Below are positions 24,001-39,100 of a stretch of DNA of 64,000 nucleotides, in pieces. Position 1 is the first letter of the stretch. Each line of letters opens with the position of its first letter. A program made the position numbers. Source of the stretch: Mytilus edulis (lineage: Eukaryota). The DNA is taken from NCBI RefSeq assembly GCF_963676685.1, contig NC_092347.1, positions 41,416,001 through 41,480,000 of the forward strand, read 5' to 3'.

Positions 24001-27000
24001 GGGTAAAAATGTTCGATTTACTTGCAGAGTGTCAGATATATTTGTATTGGGGTTGAATTAAGATATAGAAATTTTACAATGACAGATGATATGCACCTTG
24101 AAAGTTAAACATCCTATGATAAAAATTTTGTACATCTAATAATATTTTTTTTTTATGGAAAACCGTATACATGTACTTCCGTCCCATCCTTCCTTCATAC
24201 ATTACTTGCAACAGTACTGCATTTTTAGTTGAAATAACTTAAAGGGTAAACATTATTAAATCGATTTCCACAACTTGAGGTAATTTATGATAAAATGACA
24301 TCTCAAAACGAACAGAACCAGAATCAACCAACATATAAAAAAACGAATAAAACTTGCAAAAATTAATCGAAGTCAAAAACCCTCTTCGACGCCGCATTTA
24401 AAAGTGTAACGTCGTGTTTTAGGAACATCGTGCCAAACGTTTGAAAGTAGAAATAGAGCAATCAATACTTCAATTAACCCTTATTACAAGAAGGCATGTA
24501 GTTTGCGATTATTTAAAGGGAGGTGGAAAGCTTGGCTTGCCTTGGTAGGACTGAATGCCAGTCCTCATACAATTCCACATTTTATTCATACAACAAATAG
24601 AAGTTTATTTTGCCTTGAATGGCTTTACTGCCCTGTCACGTTTGGTAACACATTAGAATTTAAATTGGTATCTATAAAATATATAAGTTTCTCACAGAAG
24701 GTAACCAAAGAAGGTAACCAAAGATTTTTCGACGATGCAAATATTAAACTTTACAATATAAATAAATATCTTTAACCAATGAATTCAAATAGCAAAAGCT
24801 ACGCAATTAACAAATATATACTTATTAAGATTCATGTTAATTATTTAACAATAAAATACATTAAATATGAAATTTGGAGTTTTACCAAGGGAGCTAACAA
24901 TTAATTAATAACACTGTCTGCCACACAGCATTTCGGGGACTCTCCCTCTGGTATCTTTCGTTCCTCTTTTATAGCTGACTATGCGGGTTTTTTCTAATTA
25001 TTGGGAGCATTATGATGACCTATATTTATTAATTTCTGTGTCATTTAGTCTCTTGGCAATCATAATACATATTCTTTTATATATATAAATTGTCGTTATT
25101 ACGACATAGCTATGTCGTTAAAATGACATAGTGATGTCGTTATTACGACATGTTATGTCGAAATTACGACATAGCGATGTCGTTATAACGACATGTTATG
25201 TCGTAATTACGACATCGCGATGTCGTAAAAACGACATGTTATGTCGAAATTACGACATGCTATGTCGTAATTACGACATAATTTTTTTTTTGAATGGCCC
25301 TTATCGGCTTCCGTACATATCGGACTGTATTTACGACGCTGAGGTTGACAAATTACATTTTAAATGTGGGGACTGTATCAAAACACAAAATATATTACCT
25401 GTATAACATTGAATATAACTTAAAAATTGCATTACTCCTTTTGGAGGCAATTCGTCTGGATCGAATATTCAATGACATTTGTACCATAAGAAATATAGGA
25501 AATTGATATTAATAAATTCCATAATATTTTTTAAGAAACTATAATGCAAAAAAAGGGGTGGGGGGAGGGGCACGATCATGTAAATGCAGCAGTAGATGGA
25601 AGGGGGGGGGGAGTGTGTGAATTCTTCGGCTAGTCCTTAATAGACCTTACAAATAATCAAAGTATCATAATCTGTTTTATACCTACTCGTAAATATATAT
25701 GTAACGATTATTTTTATATAGTTATGAAAAGCAAACAAAGGAGTGTATGTATTTTGATCCAGTTGTTTGCCACCTAAATTTTTACCTAACGGGGTATGTT
25801 TTAAAACACCTAAAATACGATTTTTATGCAATTTCAACTTAAAACTTGTTGCATAATAGTTTTAGAAAATTTACTCCCGGTCATGTAGCGGCGAAGGCAT
25901 GTATTTTCTTCCTTTATTTCCTTCCAACTTTGTCTTAATTTAAACAGTTTCAGCTCAATTTGTATTTTCTTTATAAGGGGTTTGTGATTGATTGATTGTT
26001 GGTTGCTTAACGTCAAGTTGCAAATATTTCATGCATGTTCAGAACGATAAGAGGTTTGTGAAAATATGACTCACTACTCACCGGTTGAACTTCCCTGCAG
26101 AGTTTCAAAAGCATTGCATAATGGCTTTGCATTTACACCTTAGCTCCACTTTTTGCGGACATTGCATTCATACATACATGTAGGTGATTGTAGACAACAG
26201 AAGTCATACAAGATTTATTCGAAGTGGTTTCATATATAGGACACCAAAATGATGCCCAACAGTATAATCTATTGCCTTTCATTCGACCAGGTTTGGAGTT
26301 AGATTTCCCACCAAATTTTGTCATCTTAGCGGGAAAAAATTATCCATTTCGATCGCCCCTCTTTATCCGCTACAGGCGCCATCAACTTAGAGCTAAACCA
26401 CGAGCAGAAAGAAGAAAATATTAAAAAAAATGAATTTGCATATATCAGAGTATCGGGTATACATGTATGTCGAACACGCTACAAGGCGCTTGAAAAATTT
26501 CAGAGTCATTGGAAGCTTATGGAGACACCAGACTGACAAATCAATCAGACTGTAGAGCTTTGTGCGGGATTAGTGGAGCGACAGGTTGAACTTTGTCAGG
26601 AACTGTAATACAACAAATAAAACTGACTAATATCTAACCATCTTACTATATTTGTGTTATCAATCTGAAATCGAATGAACTTGTATAACTCTCAGTCCTC
26701 CCTTTTCTAGCCCGCCCTTTTCTAGCCTCTGTCAGCAATGATAACACAAAAGAAATTGTCATACATTGTATACATGTAGGATGTTACATAATGAGACTAG
26801 ATAAATGTGATTTGAAGTAACCAAGACGTGCAGAATTTTACCTGTTTAAATCTATAATCAATGTTTTGACACCGTCCCCAAATTTAAAGTCTAATTTGTC
26901 AACCTCAGCGTCGAGAATGTACCTTTAACTGTATGTTTGTAAAATTTGTCAGCTTTATTATAATGTAATCTTAATTCTTTGGCAACCTGTAAACATTGTC

Positions 27001-36100: not shown

Positions 36101-39100
36101 TCAATCAGAGGTATACAAATGTTGATCCGATAATGCTGTTCTACAGTTTCAGCTGCTGCATTTGCCCTATGGCGTTGGCGTCCAGATGTTCGCGGTTTGT
36201 TGATCGTATTCGTAATGTCGTTCTTATTTGCGATTATAGATGCTCTTTCAAAAAGCCCATCAAAAGCTTCTTCTGCGTGTTCCCGTATCTCGAGAAAAGA
36301 TGCAGCTAGTGAACGAGCTTAAACGTGTGCTTCCACAAGATCACAGTTTTCAGATTGAAGTTCTATGGACAAGGGTCTTAGGTATCCTAGTAGGAACTGG
36401 GTTATGACCGCTACTACTAATATTTCAAAGATATTCACCAGATTTAAATATCGAACACACCCTGCAATTATGATTAATCACCTTGTTGGTCAAATTAATA
36501 ACCGGTGCTATTAAAATAATGCATGATTTTAACATTTTTTTTATTTTCTGGGGTTTTTTTTTTGTATTTTTTTTTTTTATCAGCCCGCATTAGGAGGCAA
36601 CTGCCTACATGCCTCCATGTAATTTACGGCCTTGAGTTACATTCCAGTAACAACATCTTTGTCACAGTATCCTGCTCCTGTTGCGAGCGAACGGTTATGT
36701 CAAATTACTGTACGTCACAGTTCAATTTGGGGTCCTAATTGCGGTCCACGTTCAAGTCATGACGTCGATATTTTTTTTAAAATAAATTGTATCAAATGGG
36801 ATGGATAAAAATCACAAATTTTATTGCAGGATAAAGACAACAACTATTTGGTGTCTTTAAATATCAGCTGTCTTTGCATTCGGTTCTAAACAGGAGTAAT
36901 AGCTCGCTAAAGCCCGTATTACATCTGTTTCTTAGCCTCGTACAAATACACCTGATATTTAGAGACACTAAACAGTTATTGTCGGATATTTAAAATTTGC
37001 GTTTTTTTGGCACCAGTATATAATATATACTTTTTTCTCTCGATTATATCATGTTTAGTATAAAATAATCCAGATACGTTTCATGAAATTACGCCGTCCC
37101 CATACCTTTTCAAAAATCCATGATCCAACCCTGAATATAATGAAACGTTAAACTGTTGATCATACTTCGAAAGTCAGATAATAGCTGTAAGTACCTAAAT
37201 AATGTTCATTTCATAAATAGTATTGTTGTGTTGTATTAACGCATGTAATTAAACAGTTAACATAAAGCCCCCCCCCCCCCCCCCACCCCCCACCCCAAAA
37301 AAAAGAGTTAATAAAAATCAATTAATATACAGAAAAAATAACAATAACATTACCCAGTCTTAATGTATATGGTGAGATTCATTACGTAGTATAATAAGTT
37401 AAACATTATTACATAAAGTTTTATACCTGGATAAGTTAATTTATATCACGTGATAATGAATTATTGATAAACATCGGGGGTTAAAATTGGTTTTGTTTTG
37501 CCTTCAGACTTTTCTCCCAACGGAATACTTCAGTGTCCGGATTTAAATATATTTGCAAAGTACGTACAGTTGATTATTAAATTATTAAAATCTACGTAAT
37601 ATTAATCTAATAAAACCAATAAGGGTATCTTTATATTTTGCAAATTATTGTGAGGTTTTGAGAAAACGAAAGTAGAATATTATATTTTCGAAAAATGTAA
37701 AATGTGTCATGGATGTAATTTACTATGAACTTTGGACTGTACTAATTATTTACGAAATCGGAAGTTAAAGTGTAAATTTCGTTTAATTGGCACTTACAAG
37801 CGCAATCGAGTTTCAATGTTAAGATATATATGATTACCATCTAGGATTTCCCTTACTGAAAAAATCAGCCTCCTGCAAACATTTGCTTCAAGTCTGCTGC
37901 GAACTTTCTGCAGACTTGCAGCGAACACAGAGTCCATGTTTGTGGCGTGTTTGCTGCAAATACGCTGCATGTCTGCTGCAAACAATTTACCATGCAAATG
38001 AGTGTTCGCTGCAGACCTGCTGCAAACATTAATATGCAAATGAGTGTTTGCTGCAGACCTGCTGCAAACATATTTTTACAAATCAATCTTTCTCCTGCGT
38101 GTTTGCTGCAGACCTGCTGCAAACATTTATATGCAAATGAGTGTTTGCCGCAGACCTGCTGCAAACATATTTATGCAAATTAATATTTCTCCTGAGTGTT
38201 CGCTGCAGACCTGCGGCAAACATTTTTATTCAAATCAATCTGTTATACAATTAACCAATGTCATGTTGTGTACACACCATTTTATCTATATTACACAGCA
38301 AATTCTAAAAAAAGTTGTTACATCCATTCATAAAATAATTCAATTACTTTATCATTTCAAAAACTATCATAGCATAAGTTTATACATGTTATACCTTTTA
38401 ACATGTTTGATAAGTTAAATTAATTCCAAGTACGTTTTCAAATGAATTACATGCATGAATCTAAATTAAAAAAGATTTATTTGAAAGGAGTAGGTCCAGT
38501 AAGACCCCTTTTTGGCCCCAAAATATAGCAGTTTTACAAAATTGTTAAAATGTAAACTTTTAGTTATTTATTGGACAGTAGAATGCTTTTGCTACATAAA
38601 TATGGCCAGTTTTTGACAATACAATTAATGCACATATATCGGGTACTAGCACCATTAAGTCATGCTATATTACTGAAAACTTCACTATTCTAGCATTTTA
38701 GTTAAATTTGATACGGTTTTCGTGTAAAACGGAAGTGGCCGCATTCGTGTTCATCCTTAATATTGAAATGTAAGTTGTATTTGATGATAATACATAACAT
38801 ATATAAAGTTTGAGGATGAACACGGATGCGGCCACTTTCATTTTTGACAAAAACCATCTGAAAAGTGACATTTTTCGGCATATTTGCTAGATTTTTCATA
38901 TTTGAGCTGGAATCGGATCGTTTTTAATGACTAAATCAGTTGAAATCTTTCACAAAAACGAATTGATTCAAATGAAATAGACACTTAAGTGTTTAATAAG
39001 TGGTCAAAATCTTTCGTCAGATGAACCTGGAATTTGAGGCCAGAATTGGTTCTTACCAGACCTACTCCTTTGATTTGCGCATGTATATATATACAGCTAG

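What the first reader, a model, noticed from the sequence alone, without database searches (positions are those of the whole stretch)
26446..37407. Tyrosine-recombinase retroelement sits exactly between two copies of a 3.3-kb duplication
Seen: X (26446-29806) - element (29807-34236) - X' (34237-37407), with both breakpoints flush with the element termini. X' begins in the middle of the Harbinger-like transposase remnant that is continuous only in X. The element starts and ends with AAT, also the B1/A2 overlap. The corresponding empty sites read TAT (26443-45) and ATT (~37408-10). YR elements normally make no TSD. Inference: either unequal exchange between two insertions 3.3 kb apart, or YR-mediated recombination that duplicated host DNA. 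A merged-haplotype assembly artefact is also possible.
Basis: partly seen in the sequence, partly recalled or inferred. Interest (0 to 1): 0.65.

Follow-up and report, generated by a model that had tools for sequence, protein, structure and literature searches.

The report
Dead retroelement between two duplicated flanks
A long-dead tyrosine-recombinase retrotransposon copy in a bivalve-like genome sits exactly at the joint of a 3.3-kb direct duplication; this layout is best known from transposon-mediated unequal crossing-over and is probably ordinary, but this sequence alone cannot settle how it arose.

Summary
X (26444-29806) and X' (34235-37407) are direct copies: 86 substitutions in 3152 aligned columns (2.7%) and 18 indels. 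They flank a 4430-nt element (29807-34236), and the element's termini coincide with both inner duplication edges to within 0-6 nt. The element is a decayed DIRS-order retroelement with PAT-like layout. It carries RT, RNase H, Dam-like methyltransferase and tyrosine-recombinase remnants on the + strand, and split direct repeats A1...B1A2...B2. It has no gag. Against a full-length relative it shows 11-16 in-frame stops and 6-22 frameshifts. AAT at both ends and at the B1/A2 overlap is the published 3-bp junction signature of this order, not an oddity. X' does start inside a Harbinger-type transposase remnant that is continuous only at the left edge of X. The element's own repeats differ less (3 of 266) than X and X' do (p about 0.07). 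How the arrangement arose cannot be settled from one contig. I favour a Bar-type unequal exchange inside the element, between chromosomes carrying it on opposite sides of X (0.3). Rivals are a one-step recombinase-linked duplication, an assembler-made haplotype chimera, and insertion into an older tandem duplication. Interest is modest.

The parts
26444..29806 (.). X, left copy of the duplicated segment (3363 nt). It is transposon debris, not a gene.
34235..37407 (.). X', right copy (3173 nt). It differs from X by 2.7% substitutions and 18 indels, and lacks a 163-nt stretch that X has.
29807..34236 (+). The element E: a decayed DIRS-order (PAT-like) tyrosine-recombinase retroelement copy, 4430 nt.
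29807..29963 (+). Split direct repeat A1 (begins with AAT).
   Evidence: 157 nt, 98.7% identical to A2
33638..33794 (+). Split direct repeat A2. Its first AAT overlaps the end of B1.
33532..33640 (+). Split direct repeat B1.
   Evidence: 109 nt, 99.1% identical to B2
34128..34236 (+). Split direct repeat B2 (ends with AAT).
30188..33467 (+). Broken pol-type gene remnant (RT, RNase H, methyltransferase, tyrosine recombinase). Against P0085 it has 11-16 in-frame stops, 6-22 frameshifts, several in-frame insertions and deletions, and the gag part is absent.
   Evidence: tblastn outer bounds; counts
30694..31077 (+). Reverse-transcriptase domain remnant (outer bounds).
   Evidence: RVT_1 regions of P0085, P0090 and P0108 mapped onto the element; Pfam
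31381..31708 (+). RNase H-like domain remnant (outer bounds).
31703..31988 (+). Dam-like methyltransferase domain remnant (outer bounds; P0108 stretches it to 32477).
32857..33434 (+). Tyrosine-recombinase catalytic domain remnant (outer bounds). The N-terminal recombinase part lies just upstream, from about 32494.
33860..34080 (.). Small interspersed repeat flanked by TA runs, inside the 333-nt spacer between A2 and B2.
   Evidence: partial copies at 43237-43629 and 29363-29404; no tRNA or Rfam match
26160..26593 (+). Harbinger-type transposase C-terminal remnant that runs across the left edge of X.
34254..34384 (+). Only the last ~45 residues' worth of the same Harbinger-type remnant, at the start of X'.
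27915..28595 (-). hAT transposase remnant with a dimerisation domain, inside X.
35587..36051 (-). The same hAT remnant in X'.
26443..26445 (.). Outer left site, unoccupied on this contig; reads TAT.
37405..37410 (.). Outer right site, unoccupied on this contig; reads ATTATT where X has AATAAT.

Best explanation
This is a Bar-type duplication. Two copies of one defective DIRS-order element family integrated, in the same orientation, at AAT-like trinucleotides 3.36 kb apart on two different chromosomes of the population. One sat left of X and the other right of X. A homologous exchange somewhere inside the 4.4-kb element between those chromosomes then produced X-element-X', along with an unseen reciprocal deletion of X. 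A single element marks the joint, and X and X' derive from two diverged haplotypes. What is shown: the duplication, the flush termini, the element's identity and its decay. What is inferred: the two insertions and the exchange. The element is a passive landmark and substrate, and it cannot have made its own enzymes.
For: Both inner duplication edges coincide with the element's termini. An exchange inside the element predicts this and needs no unusual enzymology. X and X' differ by 2.7% plus 12 complex indels. The element's own repeat pairs differ at only 3 of 266 positions (one-sided Fisher p = 0.075, binomial 0.067). This pattern is expected if X and X' are old haplotypes joined by a younger element. 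The left flank to X contiguity is ancestral, because the Harbinger-type remnant is continuous there and truncated at X'. The element-X' joint is therefore derived. The family is abundant in bivalve protein sets: 28 long relatives were found, 16 of them named and 9 of those from Mytilus. The same window shows two independent same-orientation insertions of another repeat 8.9 kb apart, so double hits do occur here. The precedent is the Drosophila Bar duplication, where one roo element is retained between the duplicates (passage of PMC13322080). Cre-loxP trans-allelic recombination gives 5' and 3' copies that carry different parental SNPs (figure legend of PMC4151104).
Against: Neither outer site on this contig reads AAT; they read TAT and ATT. 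The published model calls for a genomic trinucleotide identical to the junction (PMC3266345 passage). Either the recombinase tolerates a mismatch or there is a polymorphism at each site. The model needs two separate trans-mobilisations of a gag-less, multiply broken copy into a 3.4-kb interval. No second copy of the element or of its A and B repeats is present elsewhere in the window. The divergence contrast is only marginal (p about 0.07). Nothing in the window shows the two parental arrangements.
Confidence: 0.3

Rival explanations
1. One-step, element-end-linked duplication (a 'giant target duplication'). A single integrated or integrating copy had its right end joined, by a family recombinase supplied in trans or by a mis-paired second strand exchange, to an AAT-like pseudo-site 3.36 kb upstream on the sister chromatid or homologue. 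This duplicated the interval on both sides of the element.
For: Both joints lie exactly at the element's recombination trinucleotide. Only one insertion is needed. The left outer site (TAT) is one base away from AAT. A tyrosine recombinase acting in trans on sites at different positions yields exactly this product in engineered mice (PMC4151104). DDE transposons are known to make tandem direct duplications through alternative use of their ends (abstract of PMC3744419).
Against: My searches found no DIRS-order element reported with a kb-scale flanking duplication. If the partner was the sister chromatid, X/X' should be no more diverged than A1/A2 and B1/B2, but the trend runs the other way. The copy itself encodes no working enzyme. 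A right end alone carries only half of the junction site. The right outer site still differs from X at the trinucleotide.
Confidence: 0.22
2. Assembler-made chimera. The sequenced animal carries the element left of X on one haplotype and right of X on the other. The assembler walked left flank-X-element on one haplotype and element-X'-right flank on the other.
For: The X/X' divergence (2.7% plus indels) looks allelic. Bivalve assemblies are known for haplotype problems (search listing). False heterotype duplications are common in unphased assemblies (passages of bioRxiv 10.1101/2021.04.09.438957).
Against: There is no gap between the copies, and the window has 0 N. A gap between the copies is one of the published hallmarks. 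Both joints are base-exact at the element's termini, so both must exist in real molecules. The artefact therefore needs the same two insertions as the best explanation. The whole structure is about 11 kb, within the reach of the long reads that a gap-free 64-kb repeat-rich contig implies (inference). A 100%-identical 1.3-kb repeat pair and several tandem arrays are resolved in the same contig.
Confidence: 0.12
3. An older tandem duplication X-X' existed first. The element later integrated in the ordinary way into an AAT at the joint.
For: Removing the element and one AAT leaves the end of X, a few bases and the start of X' in one continuous string containing AAT. This is what canonical integration into a single site predicts (PMC3266345). 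It also fits X/X' being more diverged than the element's own repeats, and it makes the non-AAT outer sites irrelevant.
Against: It requires a coincidence. A 6.5-kb pair offers a few hundred AAT sites, and the element chose the one at the joint (inference). No known reason makes a duplication joint a preferred target.
Confidence: 0.12
4. Break-repair capture. A free linear cDNA of the element was ligated, or copied by template switching, between two broken ends 3.36 kb apart on sister chromatids during replication-associated repair.
For: Linear cDNA is the predominant extrachromosomal form of DIRS-1 (PMC7192593, title and passages). One- to three-base matches (AT, AAT) are present at both joints.
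Against: The insert is complete to the base at both termini, with the canonical trinucleotide. This points to site-specific joining rather than end-joining. The sister-chromatid origin meets the same divergence objection as above.
Confidence: 0.08

Closest known systems
PAT-like elements of the DIRS order (tyrosine-recombinase retrotransposons with a methyltransferase domain and split direct repeats)
   Same: The domain order is RT, RNase H, Dam-like MT, YR on one strand. The repeats are arranged A1...B1A2...B2. The termini carry the same trinucleotide as the internal junction.
   Different: The copy is dead: 11-16 stops and 6-22 frameshifts. It has no gag or zinc-knuckle region. A 333-nt spacer holding a foreign small repeat separates A2 from B2. 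It is flanked by a 3.3-kb direct duplication, whereas the order is described as making no target duplication (PMC3266345).
Ngaro elements
   Same: [quoted passage not shown]
   Different: Ngaro is defined by lacking the methyltransferase domain. Here a Dam-like remnant aligns fully with the relatives' domain (88 of 88 residues of P0085's region and 102 of 102 of P0108's).
Drosophila Bar duplication (unequal crossing-over between two roo elements)
   Same: A single transposable element is retained exactly between two direct copies of host sequence (PMC13322080 passage).
   Different: Bar is 203.5 kb, involves an LTR element, and its parental insertions are documented. Here the interval is 3.4 kb, the element belongs to the DIRS order, and the parental states are unseen.
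Tandem direct duplications from alternative transposition of maize Ac/Ds
   Same: The element's own ends define the duplication breakpoints (abstract of PMC3744419).
   Different: That is DDE transposase chemistry with 8-bp target duplications and two nearby elements. Nothing comparable has been shown for tyrosine-recombinase retroelements.
False heterotype duplication in genome assemblies
   Same: Two allelic-looking copies side by side on one contig.
   Different: There is no gap between the copies. Both joints are base-exact at a mobile element's termini. Depth and k-mer evidence are not available here.

Membership tests
DIRS order (tyrosine-recombinase retrotransposons) | Reverse transcriptase domain | tested here: met
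   None of the element's 50 open stretches reached a Pfam cutoff. However, RVT_1 regions of the relatives P0085, P0090 and P0108 align to 30694-31077. P0090 has 126 of 158 residues aligned and 73 identical. The domain is present only as a broken remnant.
DIRS order (tyrosine-recombinase retrotransposons) | Tyrosine recombinase instead of a DDE integrase | tested here: met
   phmmer with the longest open stretch gave 82 hits. Of the 16 scanned, 7 show Phage_integrase, 2 of them above the cutoff. Phage_integrase regions of P0061 and P0088 map to 32857-33434. The catalytic residues were not examined. The domain is a remnant with 3-4 stops and 8-10 frameshifts.
DIRS order (tyrosine-recombinase retrotransposons) | Termini carry the same trinucleotide as the internal (circular) junction, and no short target duplication is made | tested here: met
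   AAT is at the start, at the end and at the B1/A2 overlap. Beyond the AAT the flanks read differently on the two sides. The rule is taken from passages of PMC3266345 and PMC7192593.
DIRS order (tyrosine-recombinase retrotransposons) | gag-type ORF | tested here: not met
   Only about 220 nt lie between the end of A1 and the first pol homology. The zinc knuckle of P0108 (residues 215-231) aligns nowhere in the element. I read this as a deletion in this copy, not as exclusion from the family.
PAT-like (within DIRS) | Methyltransferase domain present | tested here: met
   The Dam region of P0108 scores 29.4 bits against a cutoff of 28.1. It and the Dam-like regions of P0085 and P0088 align to 31703-31988.
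PAT-like (within DIRS) | Split direct repeats A1-B1-A2-B2 rather than inverted terminal repeats | tested here: met
   A1/A2 and B1/B2 pairs are present. The definition is from PMC4157794. A2 and B2 are separated by 333 nt.
DIRS1-like (within DIRS) | Inverted terminal repeats plus an internal complementary region | tested here: not met
   An inverted-repeat scan of the element found only two short internal AT-rich pairs and none at the termini.
Ngaro | Absence of the methyltransferase domain | tested here: not met
   A Dam-like remnant is present.
Transposon-mediated tandem duplication by unequal exchange (Bar type) | A single element exactly at the joint of two direct copies | tested here: met
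Transposon-mediated tandem duplication by unequal exchange (Bar type) | Parental chromosomes with the element at each of the two outer positions | not testable with these tools
   No reads, no second haplotype and no eukaryotic genome collection were on hand.
False heterotype duplication (assembly artefact) | Gap between the copies, half depth, single-copy haplotype k-mers | tested here: inconclusive
   Gap: not met, as the window has 0 N. Depth and k-mers cannot be tested here.

The most novel reading that the evidence does not exclude
A tyrosine-recombinase retroelement generated a 3.36-kb 'target duplication' in one step. Its two ends were joined to AAT-like sites 3.36 kb apart, on sister chromatids or homologues, by a family recombinase acting in trans. 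If so, DIRS-order elements, which are described as leaving no target duplication, can directly make kilobase-scale tandem duplications of host DNA.
Probability: 0.2. Interest if true: 0.7.

Novelty: new member of a known kind. Interest (0 to 1): 0.35.

Why it matters
Tandem duplications with a mobile element at the joint are a classic route to new gene copies. All well-documented cases involve LTR elements or DDE transposons. A DIRS-order element in this position would extend the list to tyrosine-recombinase retroelements. If the one-step reading were right, it would show that their recombinase can rearrange host DNA. The case is also a practical warning for annotation. In highly heterozygous bivalve genomes, an element-bridged duplicate may be either a real structural variant or a haplotype chimera, and the contig alone cannot tell which. 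No gene is affected, because X consists of transposon debris.

Tried and rejected
(1) A Pfam scan of all 50 stop-free stretches of at least 35 codons in the element gave 0 hits at or above any curated cutoff. Identity came only from phmmer plus relatives. (2) Pfam on stop-free stretches around the left edge of X gave no Harbinger domain (35 stretches at E up to 0.01; 12 stretches at E up to 10). A word-indexed protein search did find one relative. (3) ARAGORN and Rfam on 24000-45000 found 0 tRNA genes and 0 families. My guess that the small repeat in the A2-B2 spacer is tRNA-derived is therefore unsupported. (4) I searched for extra homology between the sequence after A1 and after A2, and before B1 and before B2. 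Nothing appeared beyond the repeat edges, so A and B are no longer than stated. (5) I considered that X itself might be a mobile unit with its own ends. I rejected this because its left edge cuts a transposase remnant. (6) I considered read error as the source of the X/X' differences. I rejected this because 12 of the 18 indels are complex. (7) I considered filing the element as Ngaro or DIRS1-like. I rejected both. (8) listing of cluster members for six proteins could not be made because the database was switched off, so the source organisms of the closest unnamed relatives stayed unchecked. No related eukaryotic locus could be fetched, so the family's other insertion sites stayed unchecked. 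(10) Literature searches returned no report of a DIRS-order element with a kb-scale flanking duplication. Supplementary tables were closed and might hold such cases, for example the insertion-site lists of PMC8547959.
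Full report
**Observation.**
A self-comparison of the window shows one long direct duplication. 26444-29242 matches 34235-37015, and 29404-29804 matches 37014-37405. A pairwise alignment of 26444-29806 with 34235-37407 has 3152 aligned columns, 86 substitutions (2.7%; 38 transitions, 48 transversions) and 18 indel events totalling 232 nt.

- The largest indel is a 163-nt stretch present only in X. It is bounded by a two-base repeat.
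- Six of the 18 indels are homopolymer-length changes and 12 are complex. The copies therefore differ biologically, not through read noise.
- The window contains no N.

Between the copies lies a 4430-nt element, 29807-34236. Its repeat pairs are A1 29807-29963 / A2 33638-33794 (2 mismatches in 157) and B1 33532-33640 / B2 34128-34236 (1 mismatch in 109). B1 and A2 overlap by AAT, and the element starts and ends with AAT.

Unambiguous X/X' identity stops at 29804/37405. X' identity starts at 34235, two bases inside the terminal AAT. The duplication edges and the element termini thus coincide within 0-6 nt on the left and 0-2 nt on the right.

**What the element is.**
It has no long ORF, and none of its 50 stop-free stretches of at least 35 codons reaches a Pfam cutoff. 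Its longest stop-free stretch (123 codons) was sent to the 1.84-billion-protein representative library. It found 82 proteins at E up to 1e-3, 12 at up to 1e-10 and 1 at up to 1e-30. The best was 72% identical.

I scanned 16 of those 82:
- 7 show Phage_integrase downstream of the matched part, 2 of them above the curated cutoff;
- 2 show a Dam-like methyltransferase upstream, below cutoff;
- 1 shows a zinc knuckle, below cutoff;
- 6 show nothing.

A search for longer relatives of hit P0004 returned 28 proteins. Of these, 23 carry precomputed RVT_1. Sixteen are named: nine Mytilus, three Pinctada, one each from Mercenaria, Saccostrea and Pecten, and one EukProt entry. The other 12 are unnamed. 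My own Pfam scan of eight proteins shows the family layout in P0108: zinc knuckle, RVT_1, RNase H-like, Dam (29.4 bits against a cutoff of 28.1), Phage_integrase.

All 28 long relatives align by tblastn to the + strand of the element and nowhere else in the window. The outer bounds of all protein homology are about 30188-33467. Mapping the relatives' domains with a frameshift-tolerant alignment that printed bounds and counts only places them as follows:
- RT at 30694-31077;
- RNase H-like at 31381-31708;
- Dam-like methyltransferase at 31703-31988;
- recombinase catalytic domain at 32857-33434.
The zinc-knuckle region aligns nowhere, and only about 220 nt separate A1 from the first pol homology.

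No terminal inverted repeats exist. By the published criteria (passages of PMC4157794), methyltransferase plus split direct repeats means PAT-like within the DIRS order. It is not Ngaro, which has no methyltransferase, and not DIRS1-like, which has inverted repeats.

**State of the copy.**
Against the 1139-residue relative P0085, I ran the alignment at three gap and frameshift penalties (12, 20 and 30). The pol remnant shows 11, 11 and 16 in-frame stops and 22, 15 and 6 frameshifts respectively. It also has several in-frame insertions and deletions. The recombinase part alone has 3-4 stops and 8-10 frameshifts against P0003. The gag part is missing. The lenient setting probably overcounts frameshifts. 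The tblastn pieces (5-7 per long relative, in three frames) give an independent floor.

A 28-nt tandem array (32181-32309) and a small interspersed repeat in the 333-nt spacer between A2 and B2 add foreign sequence.

So many lesions sit oddly with repeat pairs that differ at only 3 of 266 positions with no indel. The copy was most likely already defective when it integrated and was moved by enzymes from other family members. Trans action is documented for DIRS-1 (passages of PMC7192593). This is an inference.

**The AAT.**
For this order, the published model is recombination between the 3-bp junction of the circular form and an identical genomic trinucleotide. That leaves the element flanked by the trinucleotide at each end, with no target duplication. 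ATT and AAT are the commonest trinucleotides, including in mollusc elements (passages and Table 3 text of PMC3266345; discussion passage of PMC7192593). The unusual feature is the 3.36-kb repeat outside it.

**What X is.**
X is transposon debris.
- A 350-residue Harbinger-type transposase (P0111; DDE_Tnp_4 at 87.6 bits) was found with a 76-codon open stretch just left of X.
- Its residues 209-347 align to 26160-26593, across the left edge of X. X' holds only residues 304-347, at 34254-34384.
- The left flank to X contiguity is therefore ancestral and the element-X' joint is derived. X is not a mobile unit with its own ends.
- A hAT dimerisation-domain remnant lies in both copies.
- The whole window has only three ORFs of at least 150 codons.

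**How it arose.**
A joint that is base-exact at both element termini cannot be chance. It also cannot be a spurious assembler overlap, because the sequences at the end of the element and left of X share nothing useful. Molecules with X-end joined to element-start, and with element-end joined to X-start, must both exist.

The trend is that the flanks are older than the element. This speaks mildly against any model in which one event on sister chromatids created both.

I rank the origins as follows.

1. **Bar-type unequal exchange (0.30).** The exchange happened inside the element, between chromosomes carrying it on opposite sides of X.
- It explains the flush edges and the allelic-looking X/X' divergence.
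- It has an exact precedent: one roo element between the Bar duplicates (PMC13322080).
- Same-orientation double insertions do occur in this very window. The 1327-nt pair at 9669 and 18600 are 100% identical, and each copy has its own 4-nt flank duplication.
- Against it: neither outer site reads AAT, and a dead copy must have been mobilised twice into 3.4 kb.

2. **One-step recombinase-linked duplication (0.22).**
- It needs one insertion only, and both joints lie at the recombination trinucleotide.
- Cre-loxP trans-allelic recombination shows that a tyrosine recombinase can make such a product (PMC4151104).
- I found no report of this for DIRS-order elements.

3. **Assembler chimera of two haplotypes (0.12).**
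- It needs the same two insertions as (1).
- It lacks the gap hallmark.
- It would have to survive reads that probably span 11 kb.

4. **Ordinary integration into an AAT at the joint of an older tandem duplication (0.12).**
- The junction sequence and the divergence order both fit.
- The coincidence of position is severe.

5. **Capture of linear cDNA during break repair (0.08).**

The remainder is unassigned.

**Comparison and novelty.**
The element is a new, dead member of a known kind, PAT-like within the DIRS order, in a bivalve-type genome. The arrangement is a new member of a known class: a mobile element at the joint of a tandem duplication. It would be categorically interesting only if the one-step reading held.

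**Limits.**
Nothing in the window was taken for human.

For the papers, I saw passages for PMC4157794, PMC7192593, PMC8547959, PMC3266345, PMC13322080, PMC13465315, PMC4151104 and the two bioRxiv preprints. I saw the outline and abstract for PMC3744419. For the rest I saw search listings only.

Noticed in passing
9669-10995 and 18600-19926: Two 1327-nt copies are 100% identical and in the same orientation. Each is bounded by its own 4-nt direct duplication (ATAA and CTTT), with different flanks. They look like two independent insertions of a very young non-autonomous transposon 8.9 kb apart.
   Followed up: partly
19977-25323: A large inverted-repeat structure. Arms 20025-20709 / 24509-25194 are 84% identical and 20760-21033 / 24670-24943 are 98% identical. 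A 43-nt palindromic tandem array lies at 25091-25280. It looks foldback-like and sits just left of the finding.
   Followed up: no
3036-3581 (- strand): A 181-codon ORF. Its region 3039-3368 matches residues 79-188 of P0076, one of the recombinase-family hits (tblastn E = 2.5e-19). It has no Pfam hit. It is probably a fragment of another tyrosine-recombinase element.
   Followed up: partly
33860-34080; also 43237-43629 and 29363-29404: A small interspersed repeat flanked by TA runs sits in the element's A2-B2 spacer. Partial copies lie at 43.2-43.6 kb and inside the 163-nt stretch that X has and X' lacks. It has no tRNA or Rfam match.
   Followed up: partly
32181-32309: A 28-nt tandem array (4.6 copies) lies inside the element, between the methyltransferase and recombinase remnants.
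   Followed up: no
49894-51011; 58419-59138; 37973-38235: Three tandem arrays: a 355-nt unit at 99.7% identity, a unit of about 165 nt at 82-89%, and a 97-nt (42-nt sub-unit) array just right of X'.
   Followed up: no
29663-29698 and 37268-37296: Long C-rich homopolymer-like tracts are present in both X and X', with small length and sequence differences.
   Followed up: no
whole window: Only three ORFs of at least 150 codons occur in 64 kb, and GC is about 30-37%. The stretch is gene-poor and built mostly of transposon debris.
   Followed up: no
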